This document shows positions 44,978 to 55,697 of a stretch of 64,000 nt of DNA, piece by piece (the stretch's first letter is position 1; every line of letters starts with the position of its first letter). The position numbers were made by a program, and so were the translations under genes. The DNA is from Candidatus Marinacidobacterales bacterium (GTDB taxonomy: Bacteria > Acidobacteriota > Vicinamibacteria > Marinacidobacterales > DATDRI01): the NCBI GenBank assembly GCA_965219415.1, contig CBDCNP010000002.1, positions 5,024,001 through 5,088,000 of the forward strand, read 5' to 3'. The notes beneath the pieces are model-generated. The model saw only the letters and a program-made list of their open reading frames with translations. It was not told where the DNA came from and did not search any database.

Positions 44978-45291
44978 TCGCTCTCCTTCGCGAAGAAGGC
45001 CGCGGCTTTTTTTAAAACGTCGCGCTCCACCCGCAACCGCCGATTCTCTTTGCGGAGCCGCCGAAGCTCCTCGCGTTCCACGCCCGTCAAGCCCGTCCGG
45101 CCCTTCGTCCGATCGGCCCGGGCCTGACGGACCCAGTTGCGAAACGCCGATTCGGTGAGGTCAAGCTCCCGGGCCACCCGACCCACGCTCTGGCCCTCAT
45201 CAAGCACCAGCCGGACCGCGCCTGCCTTAAACTCGTCATCAAACTCCCGGCGGGGTCGCCGGGGCTGCGTTGTCTTTGCCATTGTGGACAT
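44974..45291 (-). CDS. IS3 OrfA
   Basis: FK..AVRLV, VARELD, ERDVLKKAAAFFA. Confidence 0.92.
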   Translation of the reverse strand: MSTMAKTTQPRRPRREFDDEFKAGAVRLVLDEGQSVGRVARELDLTESAFRNWVRQARADRTKGRTGLTGVEREELRRLRKENRRLRVERDVLKKAAAFFAKESE

Positions 45292-46149
45292 CGTATCCGC
45301 CTTTCAGAAAGTGTCCACGAAACTGGATCAAGCCCAACGCACCGAGGCGAGCTCTTGCATCGTCGGAGTGACGAGGCCGAGAAGGTCGTGGCATCCACAT
45401 GCTGTCGGATGAGATGCACGACGGTCTGTTCCAGCATCGGGGCGGGCAGTCGCCAGCCGGAGAGGTCCTTTTGGCCACTGTGCTGGATGAGGCGCCGGGA
45501 GACGTAGTAGCGGAGCCGTTGCCCGTTTTTCTTTTTGGTGTGGCTCGGCGTCAGCCGGTCCCCGGTCTCATCGAAGAGCTTGCCTGCCAGTGGGGAACGG
45601 GTTGCATGGCCCTTCGTCGTGCGTCTCCTTGGTTTGGCAGCCCCTGCCTGCAGCTGCGTTTGGACCGCGTCCCAGAGCTCCGGAGCGATGATCGATGGAT
45701 GCTGGCCCTCGTAGACACGCCTCTGGTGCCGGATGCGGCCGGCGTAGAGAGGATTGGTCAGCAGGCAGTGGAGGTGTCCGCGACGGAACGGCAGCCCGCC
45801 CGTTAGGGTTCCATCCGCGGCGAAGCGTCGCTTGGTGCGCAGTCCCAGACGGTCCGCGTCGGCCTTCACCTGCCGGAGCGTTCCGTGCTGCCGGTACAGC
45901 GCATAGAGCGTCCGGACCGTTTCGGCCTCAGCCTCGTTGATGCGCAGCGTGCGCTCGTCCTTCTCATAGCCGAGCGGTACGCGGCCGCCCATCCATAGTC
46001 CCTTGCGCTTGGAGGCAGCGACCTTATCGCGGATCCGCTCGGCCGTGACTTCTCGCTCGAATTGTGCGAAGGACAGCAGCATATGCAGCGTCAGTCGTCC
46101 CATGCTGGTCGCGGTGTTGAAGGACTGAGTCACCGAGACGAAAACCGCG

Positions 46150-46341
46150 CCGGGTTGCGGCCGAATGCCCGCCATAGGTCCGGCACTGGCGTTCGTACGC
46201 GAGAACGCGGCACAGGAAAGCGCGTGAGAACGAACTTGGCGGAGCAGCCTCGAAGGTCTGCTCCCAGACCCGCCGCAGGCTAGGAAGGTCCAAACCGTCC
46301 AGAACGACCCTCCGGCCAGCTCTTGTATCCTGCGGCATCAC
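46150..46341 (-). pseudogene. DUF2924-like N-terminal fragment
   Basis: LRRVW..F...PP..SR.FL.R.LAYE.Q..YGG; usual upstream partner of this recombinase type. Confidence 0.6.
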
Positions 46342-46399
46342 CGGACGTTCGCTCTTTTGCGCCGTAAAGTCCAGTCCAATGGGCGCTTCCGCGGGTGCG

Positions 46400-46606
46400 C
46401 AGTTCGCGGCCTGCAGCTCGTCCTGCAGCCGATTTGAGCCAGCCAGCCGTGCGTACCCCAGTGGGCCTGTCGCCCGCCACCCGCAGCCCAGGGGTCGGAA
46501 GCCAGCCCTGCGGCTCGAAATACTCTGGATTCTGCACGGATTCCAAGGGCGTCTAAGCTGCTGATTTGTGGTCTATTGCAAAAGGGCCGAGTTTTGGCAC
46601 AGGACG
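46400..46606 (+). repeat. ~200-bp imperfect direct repeat (copy 1) ending in transposon-end type B
   Basis: Aligns with ~47425-47632; ends CTAAGCTGCTGATTT..GGGCCGAGTTTTGGCACAGGACG. Confidence 0.85.
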
Positions 46607-46702
46607 GGAAGGCCGGGTTGGCATCCAGCTCCTCGCCCGACACGACGAGCCGCGCTTGGAGTTGGTAGAGGCCGGTCGCCCTTGGAGCTTCGACGGCGAT
46701 GG

Positions 46703-46800
46703 GGCTGTGCCCTCTATTTATTCATCCGTGCGCGCCGAACTTGATCGGTCTCCGGTCTCCCGGGACCATGCCTGCATGATCTCGTCGTTTGTTCGCGCTC
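46703..46800 (+). repeat. ~100-bp imperfect inverted repeat with 47816-47913
   Basis: GGCTGTGCCCTCTATTTATTCA..GTTTGTTCGCGCTC versus its reverse complement. Confidence 0.8.
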
Positions 46801-46882
46801 GGCCTTGGCACGGCCGCAAACACAAACACTAAGTTGCTGATTTATGGGCTATTTCAAAAGGGCCGAGCTTTGGCACAGGACG
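46801..46882 (+). repeat. Transposon-end repeat type B
   Basis: Other copies end at 46606, 47632, 47931, 57881 and 59518 (degenerate); minus-strand copies start at 48085 and 51466. Confidence 0.85.
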
Positions 46883-46941
46883 GCGTGGGCCTAGTTGTCC
46901 CCGTCGCCGTGCGCCATCTTGATTGCGAAGGTTGGATTACC

Positions 46942-47259
46942 TCAAGCTTTGCGCAGCCGCTTCACCGCAAGCACCACCAGAACCAGCGCCAGGATCAAAA
47001 GACCGAACATGAGCCCGGGGCTCATCCCGGTCTCCGCTGCCGTCGCCTCATCCGTTTCAGCGGTGGACTCTGCCATTTCTTCTACCGATTCGGCAGCCGA
47101 GTCCGCCATCTCGCCAGCAGCCTCAGCGGCTTCCCCAGCGGCGTCGGTTACCGCTTCCGATTCCTGCACGGCCTCCGATTCCTGCGCGGCGATGGCGTGG
47201 GTGAAACCCACTATCAACATAAGAGTTGCGATCGCAGCGAAACCAAAGATTCTCTTCAT
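46942..47259 (-). CDS. Small secreted acidic protein with C-terminal TM anchor and basic tail
   Basis: AGGAGGG RBS, signal peptide, E/A-rich linker, TM helix, KRLRKA. Confidence 0.8.
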   Translation of the reverse strand: MKRIFGFAAIATLMLIVGFTHAIAAQESEAVQESEAVTDAAGEAAEAAGEMADSAAESVEEMAESTAETDEATAAETGMSPGLMFGLLILALVLVVLAVKRLRKA

Positions 47260-47424
47260 CGCTCCCTCCTAATAGAACCCAACAATGCCATATATACAAA
47301 ATGTGAGAACGATGCAAGCGAAAGAAAGCCAGAGACGTTTGCCCCGAAGCCCACCACTCCTTAGGCCCGCCCAGGAGGATGCCGCGGAAGCGCAGGCGGC
47401 CGGTCCTCATGATCGGCGGACGGG

Positions 47425-47632
47425 TGCGAAGTCCGCTACCCGCAGCTCGCCCGGCAGCCGATTTGAGCCAGCCGTGCGCACGCCCGGTGGGCCTGTCGCT
47501 CGCCACCCGCAGCCCAGGGGGCAGAAGCCAGCCCTGCGGCGCGAAATACCCTCGATTCTGCGCGGATTCCAAGGGCGTCTAAGCTGCTGATTTGTGGTCT
47601 ATTTCTAAAGGGCCGAGTTTTGGCACAGGACG
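47425..47632 (+). repeat. ~200-bp imperfect direct repeat (copy 2)
   Basis: See 46400-46606. Confidence 0.85.
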
Positions 47633-47936
47633 GGGTCGGAGGCGATGTCGGCGATTCGAGTTCCCCGTACGCGCAGGGAAAACACAGTCCAGCAAGGGGA
47701 TGCCACGCTCCCGAGCGGAAACCTGGGTCCAGGCCCGGGCCGCACTTGGACCAGAACGTGCTAGCCCGCTGCGCCGCGGTAGCCCCGGCCTCGATTCTAG
47801 GTCCTCTAGAGACGAGAGCGCGAACAAACGACGAAATCATGCCGGCACGGTCCCGGCAGACCGGAGACTAATCAAGTTCGGTGCGCACGGGTGAATAAAT
47901 AGAAGGCACAGCCGAGTTTTGGCACAGGACGGGCTG

Positions 47937-47964
47937 GCCGCCAACACTTAATTGCGGAAGCACC
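47937..47964 (-). repeat. Orphan IS1-like terminal IR (unoccupied)
   Basis: Reverse complement GGTGCTTCCGCAATTAAGTGTTGGCGGC. Confidence 0.65.
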
Positions 47965-48443
47965 GCACAGGACGCGGTCTTGAGTTCGTTTGTGTTTTTG
48001 GACACGACGCGTTGGGCCCACGGACCAGGATCTCTCCATCCTTCGCGATCCTGACCTCGACTCCCTCGACGGGCTGTCCTACCGCGTCCTGTGCCAAAAC
48101 TCGGCCCTTTTGAAATAGGCCATAAATCAGCAGCTTAGTGTCTGTGTTTGCGACCGGGCCAAGGGCCGTGGGCTTTACAATCGTCTTGGGCGGGCGGGTC
48201 GTCACCATGCAGATGACCAGGTGCTTCCGCCATAAACTGTTGGCAGCCGAGCTCTAACCCGTGTATGTGGTAGAGTTTGAGCTTGAATTTGAGAGACGCA
48301 GTTCTTTCTGCGATGCCGGCTGGGCTGACCACACGGTGGCTGACGTCCAGGGACATCTTCGTGTTCACGCCGACATTCTTATTTATGGTGTTTGCCGACG
48401 CAGGCAGGCCAACTGACACTAGCATTCAAACGCGGCGTAGCAA

Positions 48444-49890
48444 CATATCTGGACTCCTCTAGTCAAGCCCCTTTCTTTCTAGTCACGCCCCTTTCTTAAT
48501 AAATCTTCCATCGAAGCTGCGCATCCATCGCGTCGTGACGAGTGGGTCAGACTGCAAACGTATCTTCGGCCTCAGTGAGGAGCGTCTTGGGTGCTCCGGG
48601 CCATGATGGAAAATCCGCGCGCGAGGAGCCAATCACTTTGAACGACCTCTTAGGGCCAGTGTTGCTATTGGCTTGACCCCGCGCCGGTCCGACCGGTACG
48701 CCATCAGTTGGATGGGTATCGTCGCAGCCTCTTTTGGAAGGGAAAAAGGAAAACACGAAAGTGGAGCCTCTAAATCTAAGCGGCCACCGGCGACTGGAAT
48801 TCACTCTCGCGGGTGGAGACGGCCCAGACGATCCGGGCGAGTTTGTTGGCGACAGCAATCACGGCCTTGTTGTGTCCCCGCGAGCGGTGGACCTTCCGAG
48901 CCCAGGCGCGGAGCTTGTCGGGCGGGCTCTTGCTGACGTTCGCCGCGCGGAGCACGGCGCGCCCGCCCTGGGTGAGGAGCATACGGAGGTAGGAGTCGCC
49001 ACGCTTGGTGATGCGTCCGAGGCGGCGAATGTCGCCACTGGAGTTTTCCTTGGGAACTAGGCCGAGGTAGCTCGAGAAGCGGCGCCCCGATGGGAAGCGG
49101 CGAAGATCGCCGACGAAGCCCACGATGGCGGTCGCGGCCAGAAGTCCGATGCCGGGAATGGCGAGAAGTCGTTGGACTTCAGGAAGCTGCTTGGTGAGCG
49201 CCTTGAGCTCGTGCTCGATGCTAGCGCACTTGTCCTTGAGTTCTCGAATCTCGGAGCAGGCATCACGGAGATGCGAACGGAGCACGTCGGGCAAATCAGA
49301 ATCAGCGTCTTCGACGAGTTCGAAGAGGGCGGGCACGACGAAGTGAGCGCCCTTTGGGATGATGAATCCGAGTTCGCGCAGGAGCCCGCGTACGGCATTG
49401 ATGCGTGCGGTCCGTGTGGAGAGCCATCCTGAGCGCAGGCGATGGAGCGCAGCGAGGGTGTGCTGGTGCACGGACTTGATGGGTACGGGAAGAAGCTCCT
49501 CGTTCCTGTAGGCCTCGAGCAACGCCTTCGTGTCGGCGCGGTCGTTCTTGCTCCCGCGTCGATACGGCCTCACGAGGTGAGGTGGGAGCAGGACGACGTC
49601 GTGTCCCAACCTTCGGAACGTCCTTGCCCAGAAGTGAGCCGAGCCGCAGGCTTCGAGAAGCACGGTGGCAGCGCTCTGTTTGGCAAAGAACGACACCAAT
49701 TTGGGTCGACTCACACGGAGTTGCTTGGACACCTTCCCCGCTTCTCCCGAGATGGCAATCTCGAAGACGTTCTTTGCAAGATCCACAGCGATTGTCGTAT
49801 CTTTCATTCGGACTCCTCCTTTTCGATGCGTATTCGACTGACTTTGGCACATCGATGCCGTCTATGTCAGTGGAGGAGTCCATTCCATCA
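48444..49890 (-). mobile_element. IS110-family, IS1111-type element, copy 1
   Basis: 1447 bp including both TG cores; sub-terminal IR TGGACTCCTC/GAGGAGTCCA; inverted copy of 51520-52966. Confidence 0.92.
48776..49807 (-). CDS. IS110-family DEDD recombinase
   Basis: AVDLAK, LEAC, KNDRAD, YLGLVPKENSSG, AVANKLARI. Confidence 0.95.
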   Translation of the reverse strand: MKDTTIAVDLAKNVFEIAISGEAGKVSKQLRVSRPKLVSFFAKQSAATVLLEACGSAHFWARTFRRLGHDVVLLPPHLVRPYRRGSKNDRADTKALLEAYRNEELLPVPIKSVHQHTLAALHRLRSGWLSTRTARINAVRGLLRELGFIIPKGAHFVVPALFELVEDADSDLPDVLRSHLRDACSEIRELKDKCASIEHELKALTKQLPEVQRLLAIPGIGLLAATAIVGFVGDLRRFPSGRRFSSYLGLVPKENSSGDIRRLGRITKRGDSYLRMLLTQGGRAVLRAANVSKSPPDKLRAWARKVHRSRGHNKAVIAVANKLARIVWAVSTRESEFQSPVAA

Positions 49891-50004
49891 CTTGATGGCG
49901 GAAGCACCCCCGGAGTGTAACGGAACTGCATGCTGGACCGAGATGGCGCGGATCAGGATAGGATAGCGGGCAGGACCGGCAACGGCTTTCAGGAGAGGAC
50001 CGCC

Positions 50005-51423
50005 ATGGCGAGTAAAGAGAAATTGCAGGCGTTTGTTGACGGATTTTGGGACGACGAGATCCTTCCCACCATCCAGGACTACATTCGCGTTCCCAACGTA
50101 TCTCCGGTGTTCGATCCCGACTGGGAACAAAACGGGCACATGGAGAAGGCGCACGAGCTTGCAAAGCGCTGGGTGGAGACGCATAAACCCGAAGGCTCGA
50201 CGCTCCACGTGGGGCGGTTGCCCGGTCGCACCCCGCTGCTGCTGTTAGAAGTGCCCGGAAAGAGCGATCGGACGGTTGTCATGTACGGGCATCTGGATAA
50301 ACAGCCGGAAATGACGGGGTGGCGTGATGGGCTCGGCCCTTGGGAGCCGGTAATGGAGGGCGAGAAACTCTATGGTCGTGGCGGGGCCGATGACGGCTAC
50401 GCAGTTTTCGCCTCGGTCTGTGCCCTACACGCGCTTCGTGCCCAGAATCTGGACCACGCGCGGGTGGTTGCCATCATCGAGTTCTCTGAGGAGAGCGGCT
50501 CTCCGGACCTTCCTGCTTACGTGGATCATTTCGAGGAACTGCTCGGCCAGCCCGAGCTCGTCGTTTGCCTGGATTCGGGAGCCGGCAATTACGATCAGTT
50601 CTGGTCTACGATCTCGCTGCGTGGGCTAGTGGGCGGCAAATTGAAGGTGCAGGTGCTTCAGGAAGGCGTCCATTCCGGCGATGCGAGCGGTATCGTCCCA
50701 TCCTCCTTCCGACTGTTTCGACCGTTGCTGGATCGTTTGGAAGATGCCGCGACGGGCCGGGTTCTGCCCGACGCCCTTCGTGTCGACATCCCCGCGCAGC
50801 GGGTCGAACAAGCGCGCCGGGTCGCCGAAGTTCTGAAAGACGGAGTGTACAGCAAGTTTCCGTGGATGAGTGGGATGAGGCCGGTCGAAGAAGATCCGAC
50901 CGAGCTCATCTTGAATCGCACTTGGCGACCCCAACTCGAGATCACCGGCCAGGACGGAATTCCCCCCGTGCAAAAGGCCGGCAATGTGCTGAGGCCCTAC
51001 ACGACCCTCAATCTGTCGCTACGGCTCCCGCCCACTCTCGCAACCGAGAAGGCGAAAGCCGTGGTGAAGGAACTTCTGGAAAAGGATCCGCCATACGGAG
51101 CCCATGTATCCGTCGAGTTCAACGAGCCGGCACAAGGTTGGAGCGCACCCGAGCTTTCTCCATGGCTCGGTCAGGCGATCGGGGAGGCCTCGGAGACTTT
51201 TTACGGAAAACCCGCCATGCACATGGGCGAGGGAGGCTCGATACCTTTCATGGGGATGTTGGGCGAGAAGTTCCCCAGCGCCCAGTTCGTGATCACCGGT
51301 GTACTGGGCCCCCAAAGCAACGCCCACGGACCCAACGAGTTCTTACACGTCGGGTACGCCAAGAAGCTCACCGCGTGTACGGCGCATATTCTGGGGAAAC
51401 ACCTGGAGAGCTCGGGGCGCTAG
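50005..51423 (+). CDS. M20-family metallopeptidase
   Basis: AGGAGAGG RBS. YGHLDKQP, YGRGGADDG, EESGS, HSG, GGSIP, AHGPNE. Confidence 0.92.
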   Translation: MASKEKLQAFVDGFWDDEILPTIQDYIRVPNVSPVFDPDWEQNGHMEKAHELAKRWVETHKPEGSTLHVGRLPGRTPLLLLEVPGKSDRTVVMYGHLDKQPEMTGWRDGLGPWEPVMEGEKLYGRGGADDGYAVFASVCALHALRAQNLDHARVVAIIEFSEESGSPDLPAYVDHFEELLGQPELVVCLDSGAGNYDQFWSTISLRGLVGGKLKVQVLQEGVHSGDASGIVPSSFRLFRPLLDRLEDAATGRVLPDALRVDIPAQRVEQARRVAEVLKDGVYSKFPWMSGMRPVEEDPTELILNRTWRPQLEITGQDGIPPVQKAGNVLRPYTTLNLSLRLPPTLATEKAKAVVKELLEKDPPYGAHVSVEFNEPAQGWSAPELSPWLGQAIGEASETFYGKPAMHMGEGGSIPFMGMLGEKFPSAQFVITGVLGPQSNAHGPNEFLHVGYAKKLTACTAHILGKHLESSGR

Positions 51424-51602
51424 ACGGACACCCGCCGCGGTAGCCCCAGCCTCGATTCTGGACCCCGTCCTGTGCCAAAACTCAGCCCTTTTGAATAGGC
51501 CGGTGCTTCCGCCATCAAGTGATGGAATGGACTCCTCCACTGACATAGACGGCATCGATGTGCCAAAGTCAGTCGAATACGCATCGAAAAGGAGGAGTCC
51601 GA

Positions 51603-52634
51603 ATGAAAGATACGACAATCGCTGTGGATCTTGCAAAGAACGTCTTCGAGATTGCCATCTCGGGAGAAGCGGGGAAGGTGTCCAAGCAACTCCGTGTGAG
51701 TCGACCCAAATTGGTGTCGTTCTTTGCCAAACAGAGCGCTGCCACCGTGCTTCTCGAAGCCTGCGGCTCGGCTCACTTCTGGGCAAGGACGTTCCGAAGG
51801 TTGGGACACGACGTCGTCCTGCTCCCACCTCACCTCGTGAGGCCGTATCGACGCGGGAGCAAGAACGACCGCGCCGACACGAAGGCGTTGCTCGAGGCCT
51901 ACAGGAACGAGGAGCTTCTTCCCGTACCCATCAAGTCCGTGCACCAGCACACCCTCGCTGCGCTCCATCGCCTGCGCTCAGGATGGCTCTCCACACGGAC
52001 CGCACGCATCAATGCCGTACGCGGGCTCCTGCGCGAACTCGGATTCATCATCCCAAAGGGCGCTCACTTCGTCGTGCCCGCCCTCTTCGAACTCGTCGAA
52101 GACGCTGATTCTGATTTGCCCGACGTGCTCCGTTCGCATCTCCGTGATGCCTGCTCCGAGATTCGAGAACTCAAGGACAAGTGCGCTAGCATCGAGCACG
52201 AGCTCAAGGCGCTCACCAAGCAGCTTCCTGAAGTCCAACGACTTCTCGCCATTCCCGGCATCGGACTTCTGGCCGCGACCGCCATCGTGGGCTTCGTCGG
52301 CGATCTTCGCCGCTTCCCATCGGGGCGCCGCTTCTCGAGCTACCTCGGCCTAGTTCCCAAGGAAAACTCCAGTGGCGACATTCGCCGCCTCGGACGCATC
52401 ACCAAGCGTGGCGACTCCTACCTCCGTATGCTCCTCACCCAGGGCGGGCGCGCCGTGCTCCGCGCGGCGAACGTCAGCAAGAGCCCGCCCGACAAGCTCC
52501 GCGCCTGGGCTCGGAAGGTCCACCGCTCGCGGGGACACAACAAGGCCGTGATTGCTGTCGCCAACAAACTCGCCCGGATCGTCTGGGCCGTCTCCACCCG
52601 CGAGAGTGAATTCCAGTCGCCGGTGGCCGCTTAG
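51603..52634 (+). CDS. IS110-family DEDD recombinase
   Basis: GGAGGAG RBS; protein identical to 48776-49807. Confidence 0.95.
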   Translation: MKDTTIAVDLAKNVFEIAISGEAGKVSKQLRVSRPKLVSFFAKQSAATVLLEACGSAHFWARTFRRLGHDVVLLPPHLVRPYRRGSKNDRADTKALLEAYRNEELLPVPIKSVHQHTLAALHRLRSGWLSTRTARINAVRGLLRELGFIIPKGAHFVVPALFELVEDADSDLPDVLRSHLRDACSEIRELKDKCASIEHELKALTKQLPEVQRLLAIPGIGLLAATAIVGFVGDLRRFPSGRRFSSYLGLVPKENSSGDIRRLGRITKRGDSYLRMLLTQGGRAVLRAANVSKSPPDKLRAWARKVHRSRGHNKAVIAVANKLARIVWAVSTRESEFQSPVAA

Positions 52635-52699
52635 ATTTAGAGGCTCCACTTTCGTGTTTTCCTTTTTCCCTTCCAAAAGAGGCTGCGACGATACCCATC

Positions 52700-52865
52700 C
52701 AACTGATGGCGTACCGGTCGGACCGGCGCGGGGTCAAGCCAATAGCAACACTGGCCCTAAGAGGTCGTTCAAAGTGATTGGCTCCTCGCGCGCGGATTTT
52801 CCATCATGGCCCGGAGCACCCAAGACGCTCCTCACTGAGGCCGAAGATACGTTTGCAGTCTGACC
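52700..52865 (+). ncRNA. Predicted bridge/seek RNA of the IS1111-type element (second copy ~48545-48710, minus)
   Basis: Two stem/internal-loop units whose loops match the reconstructed target and the donor junction. Ends approximate. Confidence 0.7.
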
Positions 52866-52969
52866 CACTCGTCACGACGCGATGGATGCGCAGCTTCGAT
52901 GGAAGATTTATTAAGAAAGGGGCGTGACTAGAAAGAAAGGGGCTTGACTAGAGGAGTCCAGATATGTTG

Positions 52970-53814
52970 CTACGCGGCTGTGGGCAGTGGTACAGGTGCG
53001 GAAGAGACCGGGTTGCGCGCCCTACTGAGCACGAAAACCTCGATCCGCGACCACAAAGGAATCGTCGTCGCCAAGAAGATGTCTCGAAAGGTGAGCCGTC
53101 GCGTGGTCAGACCAGCCTGCATAGCCGGAGTTCGGATCTCACGTCCGAACTTCAGAGCTCCGTGCGGTCGGACGAAGTTGTAATAGCAACGGAGCAACTC
53201 CAGGTGCTCATCGAGCCTCTCCGTCGAGCGAGTGTGGGAAAGCGTTCGTCTCGAAAGGTATGCCGAGCTTTGCCGGATGGTCAGATTTAACCGCTCGATG
53301 AACGACGTGTTCAATGTCGAAGAGTCCTCGGAGTTATTGAGCGCGTCATCAAATCGCCACGCAGCTCCGTGCAGCGCTCTGCGTTCGACCTTGATGATGC
53401 GATCGTTCCTGCGCGTCTTGAGGACCTGGCCATAAAGACACGCCGGACCGAAGAAGCGACGGATGACTTTCTGGTAGAATTCGAATCCATCCGTGACGAT
53501 CAAGGGAAGACGCTCGAAATTCATCCGTCTCGAAAGGTCGCGAAACAGAGCGTGAGTGTTCCGGTAGCTTCGCCTTCCCGTCGCCGTCGATGGCCAGAGC
53601 CGAGACCAGACTTCGATTGTAACGAAGACCCAACTCGGTGTCTTCTTGTTGCCCGCGAACGTGCGAATCTCGTCGGCTTGAAGCTCTTCGGCGGCGAAGC
53701 CAGCGATCCTTCTGTGATTGAATCGACGACACACTTGGGCTGCCTTCTCGAGCCAGCGGGCGACGGTGTTCCAGGCAATCCCTTTGATCCGGGAAATCGA
53801 GGAAATGCTGACAC
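52970..53814 (-). pseudogene. IS1-like DDE transposase, 5'-truncated
   Basis: LQADE, VTDG, TSFIERLNLTIR, YYNFVRPH..TPAM.AGL; stop is followed by an IS1-like IR split by IS110. Confidence 0.8.
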
Positions 53815-55098
53815 TGTGCATCGTCAAAACTGCTCCGCCCACGAAATCAAGGACTTACGCTCCGCTTGAATTCCGGGCCGAAGACGGCGAAACTCCGCCG
53901 CTATGCTCAACGTTGTTGTCTTCCTCGTCTCACTTGGGGTCCGTGCCATTCGGGCGATGTGTCGGCGCCGCGCCGACCTGGTGTTGGAGAACGTCGCTTT
54001 GCGGCAGCAAGTGACGGCGCTGAAGAAAGAGCGCCCACGGCCCACCGCTCGACGACACGGAACGGGCTTTCTGGGTTGCCCTTCGAGGTTCGTGGCCCGT
54101 GTGGGCGAGCCGCCTGCTCATCGTCCACGCGGACACCGTAGCCCGTTGGCATCGCGACCGATTCCGACGGTACTGGGCAAAGATCTCGCAGCGCCGCCAT
54201 CCCGGTCGGCCTCGGATTGATGCCGAGATTCGTCGCCTCGTCCGCACGATGGCGCAAGACGGCTGGGGGGCGCCACGCATCCATGCTGAGCTCACCAAGC
54301 TCGGTTTCATCATCTCCGAGAGCACGGTGTCGCGATACCTGCCGCGGCGTCCCGCGGAGCCCGACCAGCTGAAACGATGGATGGCTTTCTTGCGCAACCA
54401 TAAAGACGATATCGCCGCCATGGATCTGTTCACCGTGCCCACCGCGTCGCTCCGGCTGCTGTACGGCTTCTTCGTCATCGAGCACGGTCGCCGGCACATC
54501 GTTCACTTCAACGCCACGTTCCACCCGACGTCTGCTTGGGTTATTCAGCAACTGCGTGAGGCGTTTCCCTACGACACCGCTCCGAGATATCTCATCTTCG
54601 ATCGCGACTTCATCTTTAACGCTGCGGTCATCGAGTTCATCAAGGCAACGGGCACAAAACCCGTTCGCACTTCGTTTCGCAGCCCATGGCAAAACGGAAC
54701 CGCGGAGCGGTGGGTCGGCAGCTGCCGTCGCGAGCTCCTTGAGCACGTCGTGGTTCTCGGCGCATGTCATCTCATCCGGCTCGTGCGAGCTTACATCAGC
54801 TACTATCACGAGGACCGTTGCCACTTGGGGCTGAACAAGGACACACCGAGCTTGAGAACGGTCACGCACCGACCGTCTCCTACGGCGAAAGTAGTCGCAC
54901 TGCCGCGAGTCGGTGGACTGCACCATCGATACGAGTGGCGAGAGGCAGCCTGAGTCAGCTTGGTCGCTCGCGTTACTCGGCTGGTCGCCGAGAAGTTCGT
55001 CCTCAGCACCTTCCCTCGCGCGCTGACCACGCTCTCCAGCATGTGCTCGAGGGCGGTCCGGGCCCTAGAGTCCAGTCCCGGATTAATGATGATGGACA
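53815..55098 (+). mobile_element. rve-integrase-domain element with TGT..ACA ends (IS481-like)
   Basis: Ends TGTGCATCGTCA / TGATGATGGACA; truncates neighbours on both sides. Confidence 0.7.
53903..54953 (+). pseudogene. rve-domain transposase (frameshifted at ~54030-54100)
   Basis: LENVALRQQ, WGAPRIHAEL, AMDLFTV, DRD, SPWQNG.AER, GGLHHRY. Confidence 0.85.
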
Positions 55099-55697
55099 GG
55101 CGCGGTTTCAAGTCATGGTGCGAAAACGCTGCTCTCGAGTACCGCTCACACTTGGGATTAAACTGCGACGACCCGCTTGATCCCCGCGACCTTGCTCGTC
55201 ACCTCGGCGTCTTGGTCTGGACTCCGCGCGAGGTGCCCGACGTCTCAGAGCAGAGCATCGAACAGCTGACGGAAGTCGACCCAAGCAGTTGGTCAGCCGT
55301 CACGGTCACCATTGGCGAACAGAACCTCGTCATCTTCAACACCGCACATGCGCAGACCCGCCAACGCAATAGCCTGGCACACGAACTTGCGCACGTAATA
55401 CTGAACCATCATCCTACCGCGACCAGCATCTCTGAGGAAGGGTTTTTATTCAGGGACCGTTTCGACACCGAACAGGAAGAGGAGGCTGACTGGCTCGCCG
55501 GTTCGTTGCTGTTGCCGCGGGACGGGCTACTAAGCGTGTATCAGAGGACTTCATCAACCGCAGGCATTGCCAGGACGTTTGGTGTCAGCACCCAATTGGT
55601 CGAGTGGCGTCTGCGGATGACTGGCATCATCAGGCAGACCGAACGCGCATCCCGAAAATGGCGGCGACCTGCTCCTCGAAAACTGGTTCAAAACTGA
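55086..55697 (+). CDS. ImmA/IrrE-family metallo-endopeptidase
   Basis: RQRNSLAHELAH, EQEEEADWLAGSLLLP, C-terminal HTH-like FGVS..V.WR. Confidence 0.88.
   Translation: MMMDRRGFKSWCENAALEYRSHLGLNCDDPLDPRDLARHLGVLVWTPREVPDVSEQSIEQLTEVDPSSWSAVTVTIGEQNLVIFNTAHAQTRQRNSLAHELAHVILNHHPTATSISEEGFLFRDRFDTEQEEEADWLAGSLLLPRDGLLSVYQRTSSTAGIARTFGVSTQLVEWRLRMTGIIRQTERASRKWRRPAPRKLVQN

What the first reader, a model, noticed from the sequence alone, without database searches (positions are those of the whole stretch)
48435..52975. IS1111-type IS110 element that targets the terminal inverted repeat of IS1-like elements
Seen: both 1447-bp copies have the same flanks. Removing either restores GGTGCTTCCGCCATCAAG-TG-TTGCTACGC, which directly abuts the stop codon of an IS1-like transposase (52970) or its remnant (48277-48440) and resembles IS1-type IRs. 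The two host elements diverge beyond the IR, so these look like independent insertions at the same TG. Known: IS4321/IS5075 target Tn21-family IRs and other IS1111 members target attC or REP sites. I do not know of an IS1-IR-targeting member. Inference: an RNA-guided hyperparasite that disables or hitch-hikes on IS1-like elements.
Basis: partly seen in the sequence, partly recalled or inferred. Interest (0 to 1): 0.85.

Follow-up and report, generated by a model that had tools for sequence, protein, structure and literature searches.

The report
RNA-guided IS that invades IS1-like ends
A small jumping gene of the known IS1111/IS110 kind carries its own guide RNA and uses it to insert, again and again, at one exact spot in the end of a second, IS1-like jumping gene; this is a clear new example of a known mechanism, not a new one.

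Summary
Its own genome holds 26 full, 4 near-full and 5 fragmentary copies. All 33 left junctions abut GGTGCTTC(C/T)GC(C/T)ATCAAGTG with unique DNA beyond. Of 30 right junctions, 28 start TTGCTA. Many uninterrupted copies of the site exist, so the flanks are target, not element ends.

The target is the stop-codon-side inverted repeat of a 1200-bp IS1-like element and of its MITE-like relatives. The IS copies are at least 99.0% alike, whereas their host elements differ widely, so the insertions were independent.

The element fits the IS1111 group, and its 3' non-coding region has two guide loops. The 10-nt loop TAGCAACACT pairs with target AGTGTTGCTA. Across seven related lineages with different targets, the homologous loop matches its own target (9-13 nt in 12 of 13 cells) and not the others (7 nt at most in 68 cells).

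It is a new member of a known kind; IS4321/IS5075 target Tn21-family ends. "Disables" is inferred and "hitch-hikes" is not supported. This scan has already followed up IS1111 elements aimed at other IS or MITE elements on other DNA.

The parts
51522..52966 (+). IS1111-type IS110-family element, copy 2 (1445 bp, counting the TG at its right end)
   Evidence: Junctions read. Part of the 1477-nt perfect inverted repeat. One of 26 full-length copies in the genome.
48444..49888 (-). IS1111-type IS110-family element, copy 1 (1445 bp)
   Evidence: genome place C3:5072444-5073888.
51603..52634 (+). Transposase/recombinase gene, 343 aa, DEDD RuvC-like N-terminal domain plus PF02371 C-terminal domain, GLVPKENSSG motif
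   Evidence: NCBIfam NF033542 'IS110 family RNA-guided transposase' 302.9 bits (cutoff 140). Pfam PF01548 45.7 bits and PF02371 85.5 bits. Motif seen in the alignment. Best named plasmid relative is an ISPa25-family transposase, 45.9% identity.
51529..51537 (+). Left subterminal inverted repeat GGACTCCTC (pairs with 52951-52959)
   Evidence: Read. The rc match GAGGAGTCCA is reported. Conserved in the relatives.
52951..52959 (+). Right subterminal inverted repeat GAGGAGTCC
52726..52856 (+). Candidate seekRNA/bridge RNA: two stem-closed internal loops in the 332-nt 3' non-coding region (52635-52966)
   Evidence: Folds. Stems conserved in 5 related sequences: 97.0% of 168 cells paired against 38-46% when the partners are slid. 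The scaffold is shared with lineages that have other targets.
52743..52752 (+). Target guide T (TAGCAACACT), which pairs with target top strand AGTGTTGCTA (2 nt left of core, core TG, 6 nt right of core)
   Evidence: 10/10 match. 0.05 matches expected per window. The homologous loop matches its own target in the related lineages.
52772..52776 (+). Target guide B (AAGTG, within TTCAAAGTG at 52768-52776), same sense as the left target plus core (CAAG-TG)
   Evidence: Only 5 nt exact, which is not above the cross-lineage background. This is the weak part of the reading.
52799..52807 (+). Donor guide T (TTCCATCAT), which pairs with the predicted circle junction ATG|ATGGAA (core plus left end)
   Evidence: 9/9 match. 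In G008 the loop reads TCCCAT and the left end ATGGGA, a change on both sides.
52845..52851 (+). Donor guide B (AGATACG), same sense as right end plus core (AGATA-TG), with one mismatch at the first core base
   Evidence: Read. The 92-93% relatives read AGATATG, or CAGATATG in one of them, an exact match.
52944..52949 (+). TTGACT, candidate -35 box of a promoter completed only in the circular form (17-18 nt from TGGAAT/ATGGAA in the left end)
   Evidence: Read. TTGACA sits at the same place in lineages T1, T2 and Th. Junction promoters of this family are described in PMC11187229 (Introduction). Inference only.
51502..51521 (+). Outer 20 nt of the host inverted repeat (GGTGCTTCCGCCATCAAGTG), split off by copy 2
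52967..53814 (-). Host IS1-like element, class A: inner part of the repeat, stop codon at 52970-52972, transposase gene. It is cut at 53814 by a third IS.
   Evidence: Full 1200-bp copies lie elsewhere, e.g. L031. NF033558 IS1 family, 85.3 bits, E 5.2e-24, below the cutoff of 100.
48220..48443 (-). Host MITE-like element, class B (244 bp together with 49889-49908), interrupted by copy 1
   Evidence: One search listed 32 copies with this end: by their printed upstream flanks 12 abut the IS, 17 are labelled empty as canonical repeats and 3 more are empty but diverged. The copies are only about 82-86% like the window's copy.
49889..49908 (-). Outer 20 nt of the MITE's inverted repeat, split off by copy 1

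Best explanation
This is an autonomous IS1111-group (IS110-family) insertion sequence. Its DEDD recombinase is directed by an RNA encoded in its own 3' non-coding region. One internal loop of that RNA pairs with both strands of the sequence ...CAAG-TG-TTGCTA. That sequence lies 18-26 nt inside the stop-codon-side terminal inverted repeat of an IS1-like element family. A second loop pairs with the element's own joined ends in the circular form. Recombination at the TG places the element 20 nt from the tip of the host repeat, always in one orientation with its recombinase gene reading into the host element. Shown here: the site, the orientation, the many independent insertions, the family assignment, and the guide-target matches and their co-variation across lineages. 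Inferred: the RNA is made and bound, a circular intermediate exists, and splitting the repeat immobilises the host copy.
For: Family. NF033542 scores 302.9 bits against a cutoff of 140. Pfam PF01548 and PF02371 are both above threshold. The protein is 343 aa, the 3' non-coding region is 332 nt against 81 nt upstream, subterminal repeats are present, and the GL-P----SG motif is present. These are the traits PMC11187229 gives for IS1111 (sections read). The nearest named plasmid relative is an ISPa25-family transposase at 45.9%.

Target. 33 of 33 left junctions and 28 of 30 right junctions are the same. Empty sites are abundant. A census of 1040 termini starting GGTGCTTCCGC (one mismatch allowed) found the element only where the next 9 nt are CATCAAGTG (32 of 157) or TATCAAGTG (1 of 6). 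It was at 0 of 127 CATTAAGTG sites and 0 of 51 AATTAAGTG sites, the latter being the host's other end. Among CATCAAGTG sites, 28 occupied against 72 empty have TTGCTA on the right, and 1 against 44 have TTGG.. (Fisher p = 1e-4).

Independence. 26 full copies are 99.0-100% alike (median 99.9%). Their inner host flanks have median identity 56% and none exceeds 99%. Only 1 of 325 pairs shares the outer flank. The 7 IS-bearing copies among 42 class A hosts need 7 changes on the host tree.

Guides. There is a 10/10 match to the target and a 9/9 match to the predicted circle junction. In the cross-lineage matrix of 9 guide sets over 7 targets, same-target matches were 9-13 nt in 12 of 13 cells and other-target matches were at most 7 nt (mean 5.1) in 68 cells. 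A 94%-identical sister (L085) has a changed loop and sits in a correspondingly changed site. Relatives at 91-97% nucleotide identity in other genera of the same order use the same site.
Against: There is no direct evidence of the RNA, of the circle, or of present-day activity. The runs laid were contigs only, and RNA-library contigs covered parts of the gene without showing transcription. The B target guide is only 5 nt exact (7 with a 1-nt bulge), no better than the cross-lineage background of 3-6 nt. The donor B guide has a mismatch at the first core base. The 146-nt candidate RNA does not fold better than shuffles (z = -0.66; 49 of 200 shuffles fold as well), although the whole 332-nt region does (z = -3.32; 0 of 100). 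None of the 34 stem pairs changes on both sides in the 5-sequence alignment. One lineage (T2) gave only a 6-nt T match. The host's IS1 assignment is below the curated cut-offs. In related genomes a minority of copies lie outside recognisable repeats (7 of the 33 loci printed, by my reading of the flanks), so the repeat as such is not required.
Confidence: 0.85

Rival explanations
1. The shared flanks are part of the element. On this reading it is a 1477-bp (or longer) IS whose own ends read GGTGCTTCC... and ...TTGCTACGC, and it inserts without site preference.
For: The two window copies are identical over 1477 nt, not 1445. Most genome copies match over 1474-1477 nt.
Against: The two flanks occur joined, without the element, as GGTGCTTCCGCCATCAAGTGTTGCTA at 72 places. 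There they form the terminus of 1200-bp and 244-bp elements with unique DNA outside. Inside the right flank the sequence falls into four unrelated classes rather than being unique.
Confidence: 0.01
2. Hitch-hiking. One or a few original insertions occurred, and the composite of host IS or MITE plus IS110 was then spread by the host element's own transposase.
For: The outer 20 nt of the host repeat and the host's other end stay in place, so a composite with both tips exists. Three of the intact-IS-bearing class A hosts are full length.
Against: Host parts next to the IS differ far more than the IS copies do. The IS copies are at least 99.0% alike, while the inner flanks have median identity 56% and none exceeds 99%. 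MITE hosts are only 82-86% like the window's. IS-bearing class A hosts are scattered on the tree, needing 7 changes for 7 copies, though the tree is poorly resolved and its starred branches force only 2. The one pair with the same outer flank is a segmental duplication.
Confidence: 0.05
3. Protein-only site recognition. The recombinase recognises the repeat directly, and the matches in the 3' region are chance or serve another purpose.
For: The short B guide and the weak folding statistics of the 146-nt piece.
Against: The homologous loop changes together with the target in lineages whose recombinases are 55-94% identical. The mechanism has been shown experimentally for four IS1111 members and one IS110 member (PMC11187229, abstract and sections). 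Off-site copies in relatives keep only the guide-read centre TCAAGTG|TTGCT (L087, L088).
Confidence: 0.07

Closest known systems
IS4321 / IS5075 (IS1111 group)
   Same: IS1111-type elements with subterminal repeats that insert at one position, in one orientation, inside the terminal inverted repeat of another transposon. I know this from the title of Partridge & Hall 2003 as cited; the paper itself was not held. PMC11187229 reports nearly 900 insertions for the IS4321 target logo.
   Different: Their target is the 38-bp repeat of Tn21-family (Tn3-type) transposons in Proteobacteria. Here it is the repeat of an IS1-like insertion sequence and its MITEs in marine Acidobacteriota-type genomes. 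I did not measure protein identity to IS4321/IS5075. The best named plasmid hit was ISPa25-family at 45.9%.
ISEc11, ISKpn4, ISPst6, ISPa11, ISPa25 (IS1111 members with a demonstrated or predicted seekRNA; Siddiquee et al. 2024, PMC11187229)
   Same: The non-coding region lies downstream of the gene. The RNA has a segment complementary to the top strand that precedes one complementary to the bottom strand, and the two matches overlap at the insertion point. Here TAGCAACACT (top) precedes AAGTG (bottom), and they overlap on AGTG.
   Different: Their targets are a linear site, attC sites and REP sequences. No RNA has been observed for the present element.
IS621 bridge RNA (IS110 group; Durrant et al. 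2024, PMC11208160)
   Same: Two internal loops, one for the target and one for the donor. Each reads both strands and includes the core dinucleotide (passages).
   Different: In IS621 the RNA is at the left end and the bottom-strand guide comes first, with core CT. Here it is at the right end with the opposite order, and the core is TG (CG in sister lineages).
IS1111 of Coxiella burnetii in QMITE2 (Wachter et al. 2018, PMC5896051)
   Same: An IS1111-family element whose copies sit in a miniature transposable element: 20 of 21 copies are associated with QMITE2 (passages).
   Different: There the site is a REP palindrome inside the MITE, not the terminal repeat shared with an autonomous IS.

Membership tests
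IS110 family (DEDD RNA-guided transposases) | Protein matches the curated family model above its cut-off; N-terminal DEDD/RuvC-like domain plus PF02371 C-terminal domain | tested here: met
   NF033542 302.9 bits against cutoff 140. PF01548 45.7 bits against 29 and PF02371 85.5 bits against 21.3.
IS1111 group | The longer non-coding region lies downstream of the transposase gene | tested here: met
   332 nt downstream (52635-52966) against 81 nt upstream (51522-51602). Criterion from PMC11187229.
IS1111 group | Subterminal inverted repeats, usually 11-13 bp, with short asymmetric terminal extensions (7 left and 3 right, or 6 and 3) | tested here: inconclusive
   Repeats are present: GGACTCCTC/GAGGAGTCC, 9-10 bp perfect, or 11 of 13. 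The extensions are 6 and 6 nt (or 8 and 4, depending on which TG is counted), not 7 and 3. Criterion.
IS1111 group | Transposase of about 330-350 aa with a GL-P----S(T)G motif in the C-terminal domain | tested here: met
   343 aa with GLVPKENSSG. Criterion.
IS1111 group | One specific target site, one orientation, no target duplication beyond the shared core | tested here: met
   33 of 33 left junctions are the same, the orientation relative to the host repeat is always the same, and only TG is shared.
IS1111 group | seekRNA with the top-strand match 5' of the bottom-strand match; RNA co-purifies with the transposase and is required for movement | not testable with these tools
   The sequence order fits. 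RNA production, binding and requirement cannot be tested here, and laid contigs show no transcript ends.
IS1 family (the host element) | Transposase matches the IS1 family model above its cut-off | tested here: not met
   IS1 is the best family but below threshold: NF033558 85.3 bits against cutoff 100 (E 5.2e-24), next best ISL3 at 37.6 bits. Pfam DDE_Tnp_IS1 scores 22 bits against 24.1. Hence 'IS1-like', not a confirmed member.
IS1 family (the host element) | N-terminal zinc-binding motif followed by helix-turn-helix | tested here: inconclusive
   The CxxC...CxxC pattern is visible in the protein. NF050000 IS1/IS1595 Zn domain scores 20 bits against cutoff 28. HTH_23 scores 19.6 bits against 24.6.
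IS1 family (the host element) | Terminal inverted repeats starting GGT.. and 8-9-bp target duplications (features recalled from ISfinder descriptions, not from a call) | tested here: inconclusive
   The repeats GGTGCTTCCGCCATCAAGTGTTGCT and GGTGCTTCCGCAATTAAGTGTTGGC are present. I saw no direct repeat in the flanks of the 28 full copies listed.

The most novel reading that the evidence does not exclude
The element may work as a transposon-specific suppressor. It splits the repeat 20 nt from its tip while leaving the host transposase gene whole. That would immobilise each IS1-like or MITE copy it enters, and 28 of 100 matching ends are already occupied. Its guide can be re-aimed by a few substitutions, as in sister L085. 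A bacterial lineage could therefore carry an evolving, RNA-programmed brake on a runaway IS family of about a thousand related termini in this genome. Convergent read-through from the IS into the host transposase gene might add antisense silencing.
Probability: 0.15. Interest if true: 0.7.

Novelty: new member of a known kind. Interest (0 to 1): 0.42.

Why it matters
It adds an IS1-like terminal repeat to the known targets of IS1111-type elements (Tn21-family ends, attC sites, REP sequences and a REP inside a MITE). It also comes with an unusually rich natural data set: about 1000 related termini in one genome, of which only one sequence class is used; off-site events in relatives; and sister lineages with the same RNA scaffold but other guides. 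That amounts to a ready-made specificity table for an RNA-guided recombinase with a TG (or CG) core. It could inform rules for guide length and mismatch tolerance in the less studied IS1111 branch. It also shows how layered parasitism among mobile elements shapes an IS-laden genome. The mechanism itself is not new.

Tried and rejected
Rfam. A search of 51400-53100 at E up to 1 gave only a chance miRNA hit (22.5 bits against a gathering score of 70). No bridge or seek RNA family was reported.

Reads. All runs offered were Logan contigs. I laid X17, X16, X1 and X15. RNA-library contigs at 90-99% identity cover parts of the recombinase gene and short pieces of the non-coding region, but they do not show transcription, ends or a circle junction. 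One X16 contig has the joint 51521 to 52966, which is simply the empty-site form that also exists in the genome. I draw no conclusion from this on expression, excision or habitat.

G008 empty site. My first two guesses for the G008 lineage found nothing. Homologous uninterrupted hairpins were then found by searching with the flank. They showed that the loop reads TCCGGA-CG, which matches the B guide GTCCGGACG.

The 8-nt match TGATGGCG. This match (52704-52711) to target positions 9-16 lies in a hairpin stem. About 0.3 such matches are expected by my own rough estimate, so I do not count it as a guide.

Stem co-variation. With 5 sequences there are no double-sided changes, so this gives no support beyond conservation.

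Literature. I found no paper describing an IS1111 or IS110 member that targets an IS1-family repeat. I searched: 'IS110 family / inverted repeat / inserted into the / IS1 family / target site'; 'IS1111 / IS4321 / IS5075 / terminal inverted repeats'; 'IS110 / inserted / inverted repeat of IS / nested / bridge RNA'; and 'IS110 / IS1111 / targets the inverted repeat / hyperparasit / transposon IR / insertion sequence targeting'. I also searched for passages in 10.64898/2026.08.14.744561. ISfinder, TnPedia and Partridge & Hall 2003 (not held) could not be consulted. Supplementary tables of PMC11187229 and PMC11208160, which list targets of more than 300 IS, were not seen and may hold such a case.

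Not done. I did not search for homologues of the host transposase in the large protein collections, and I made no structure prediction.

Full report
WHAT IS THERE. Window positions 48432-49908 and 51502-52978 form a perfect 1477-nt inverted repeat. Each arm holds a 343-aa gene (51603-52634 in the + copy). It matches the curated model 'IS110 family RNA-guided transposase' (NF033542, 302.9 bits, cutoff 140) and both Pfam domains of the family. The junctions read GGTGCTTCCGCCATCAAG-TG-ATGGAATGGACTCC...GGAGTCCAGATA-TG-TTGCTACGC. The mobile unit is therefore 1443 bp plus one TG, not 1447. The two copies flank an M20-family peptidase gene (49930-51423). I see no sign that this gene belongs to the element.

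ARE THE FLANKS TARGET OR ELEMENT? The window is part of an 8.05-Mb genome in three contigs. That genome holds 26 full-length copies, 4 near-full copies and 5 fragments. All 33 left junctions read GGTGCTTC(C/T)GC(C/T)ATCAAGTG, and the DNA beyond them is unique. Of 30 right junctions, 28 begin TTGCTA, one begins TTGGCG, and one runs into another copy of the element. The same two halves occur joined, without the element, as the tip of many repeated elements whose outer flanks are all different.

THE HOSTS. Past TTGCTA the right flanks fall into four classes.
- Class A (16 copies) is a 1200-bp insertion sequence. Its terminal repeats are GGTGCTTCCGCCATCAAGTGTTGCT and GGTGCTTCCGCAATTAAGTGTTGGC, and it has one 355-aa gene.
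- Class B (10 copies) is a 244-bp MITE-like element. The window's left host, 48220-48443 plus 49889-49908, belongs to this class.
- Classes C (2 copies) and D (1 copy) are further relatives.
The class A protein is closest to the IS1 family model but below its cut-off (NF033558, 85.3 bits against 100, E 5.2e-24; the next family, ISL3, scores 37.6 bits). Pfam's IS1 domain is also just below threshold. 'IS1-like' is fair; 'IS1 family member' is not shown. The host stop codon (CTA at 52970-52972 on the + strand) lies inside the part of the repeat that the guide reads, 3 nt from the insertion point. The host gene therefore stays whole while its repeat is split 20 nt from the tip. In the window the class A host is also cut at 53814 by a third, IS481/IS3-like element.

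INDEPENDENT INSERTIONS. The 26 full copies are 99.0-100% identical (median 99.9%). The 200 nt of host next to them have a median pairwise identity of 56%, and no pair exceeds 99%. Only 1 of 325 pairs shares the outer flank, and that pair is a segmental duplication. MITE hosts are only 82-86% like the window's MITE. On a tree of 42 class A copies, the 7 that carry the element need 7 gains. The tree is weakly resolved, though, and its well-supported branches force only 2. A recent burst of separate insertions into hosts that had already diverged fits these data. Spread of a host-plus-IS composite does not.

NATURAL SPECIFICITY. The genome holds 1040 termini that begin GGTGCTTCCGC, allowing one mismatch.
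- The element sits only where the next nine bases are CATCAAGTG (32 of 157) or TATCAAGTG (1 of 6).
- It was at none of 127 CATTAAGTG sites and none of 51 AATTAAGTG sites, the latter being the other end of the same host IS.
- Among CATCAAGTG sites, those followed by TTGCTA are occupied 28 times and empty 72 times. Those followed by TTGG.. are occupied once and empty 44 times (p = 1e-4).
Both halves of the site matter.

THE GUIDE RNA. The 332-nt region after the gene folds better than shuffles (z = -3.32). It contains two stem-closed internal loops.
- In the first loop, the 5' strand TAGCAACACT is the exact reverse complement of target AGTGTTGCTA (0.05 such matches expected per window). The 3' strand holds AAGTG, the left target plus core.
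- In the second loop, TTCCATCAT is the exact complement of the predicted circle junction ATG|ATGGAA. AGATACG repeats the right end plus core with one mismatch.
The order, with the top-strand complement first, is the one reported for IS1111 seekRNAs (PMC11187229). The two-loop logic is that of the IS621 bridge RNA (PMC11208160).

CO-VARIATION. The same element, at 91-97% nucleotide identity, occurs in five other genomes of the same order but a different family, at the same site. A protein-based scan of public genomes returned 80 loci. Records titled Candidatus Marinacidobacterales MAGs carry 92-98% identical proteins. More distant lineages, at 46-62%, come from Terriglobia, Thermoanaerobaculia and others. 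I compared nine guide sets that cover seven different targets: this element, its 93% variant, sister L085, G008, T1, T2, L116, and two Thermoanaerobaculia forms. The longest match between a lineage's first loop and the reverse complement of a target was 9-13 nt in 12 of 13 same-target cells; T2 gave 6. It was at most 7 nt (mean 5.1) in all 68 other-target cells. L085 is 94% identical in protein. It reads GATAACAATCG where this element reads ATAGCAACACT, and it sits at ...CCAG-TG-ATTGTTATCC. In G008 the donor loop reads TCCCAT and the left end reads ATGGGA, against TTCCAT and ATGGAA here, which is a change on both sides. G008's B guide GTCCGGACG matches uninterrupted homologues of its target hairpin. 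This comparative pattern is the main support for RNA guidance.

WEAK POINTS. The B target guide is short and not above background. The 146-nt piece alone folds no better than shuffles. The stems are conserved (97.0% of 168 cells paired against 38-46% when slid), but no pair changes on both sides. No transcript, circle or present activity is shown. In relatives, about 7 of the 33 loci printed lie outside recognisable repeats, by my reading of the flanks. Two of them (L087, L088) keep only TCAAGTG|TTGCT, and several others are insertions into other copies of the element itself. This fits a guide that reads 12-16 nt. It also means the repeat is the abundant carrier of the site, not a requirement.

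COMPARISON AND NOVELTY. The element meets the tested IS1111 criteria, except that its terminal extensions are 6 and 6 nt rather than 7 and 3. The nearest named relative on plasmids is an ISPa25-family transposase at 45.9%. PMC11187229 lists ISPa25 among the attC-targeting IS1111 members. Targeting another transposon's terminal repeat is the known habit of IS4321/IS5075, and IS1111 itself lands in a MITE. Four literature searches and one passage search found no report of an IS1-type repeat as target. ISfinder and the papers' supplements could not be seen. Earlier follow-ups in this scan, on other genomes, already describe IS1111-type elements aimed at IS1 coding sequence, at IS leaders and at MITE ends. 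First-stage notes on this same genome saw the same guides. I therefore file it as a new member of a known kind.

FUNCTION FOR THE HOST ELEMENT. Splitting the repeat most likely stops the occupied copy from transposing, but this is inference. I found nothing that supports hitch-hiking.

Noticed in passing
whole genome; window examples 47941-47965, 48220-48243, 49885-49908, 51502-51525: About 1040 termini start with GGTGCTTCCGC (one mismatch allowed). They fall into several classes by their next 9 nt, so a large superfamily of IS1-like elements and MITEs shares the outer 11 nt of its inverted repeat. The genome is extremely IS-rich.
   Followed up: partly
window 46553-46613, 46829-46889, 47579-47639, 48078-48138 (reverse), 51461-51501 (partial): An abundant REP-like repeat of about 60 nt (..GGGCCGAGTTTTGGCACAGGACG..), with more than 100 short hits in the genome. 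Several IS1-like ends abut it at the same position (..ATAG(A/G)CC|GGTGCTTCC), so the host elements may themselves prefer a site in this repeat. That would be a third layer of nesting.
   Followed up: no
window 53814-55099: A third insertion sequence of about 1285 bp, with more than 60 copies. Its rve-type transposase gene is at 54099-54953 (+): IS481 model 81.6 bits and IS3 model 78.2 bits, both below cut-off. It interrupts the IS1-like host copy.
   Followed up: partly
L085 (public record OZ250169.1), element about 1416-2839 of the locus: A sister element, 94% identical in protein, has a naturally re-programmed target loop (GATAACAATCG). It is inserted at ..CTCCAG-TG-ATTGTTATCC and not in the IS1-like repeat.
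   Followed up: partly
L038/L047 (G008), L101-L109 (T1), L110-L115 (T2): In three sister lineages the left junction core reads TG and the right junction core reads CG, while the bottom-strand guides read CG. This is a consistent C/T difference at the first core base between donor and target. Here both junctions read TG, but the donor B guide still reads CG.
   Followed up: no
L069, L077, L082, L093 (public MAG records); own genome C3:3315401-3316873: Copies of the element inserted into other copies of itself, at GTG or AGTG-containing sites in the recombinase gene or the 3' region. These look like partial-match off-target events or tandem arrangements.
   Followed up: no
L070, L071, L079 left flanks; own genome C3:4834018: A partial tandem duplication of the outer repeat (GGTGCTTCCGCCATCAAGTG followed by CTTCCGCCATCAAGTG, or GGTGCTTCCGC doubled) next to some sites. 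Its origin is unexplained.
   Followed up: no
window 45087-46175 (-): A large serine recombinase gene (Pfam Recombinase and Resolvase domains). It lies beside a 1-kb direct repeat of 152-nt and 53-nt segments at 46392-47634.
   Followed up: no
window 52914-52953: The window's variant carries a 20-nt tandem duplication (AAAGGGGC(G/T)TGACTAGA..) in the right end. It is absent from the 97% relatives and from two copies in the own genome.
   Followed up: no
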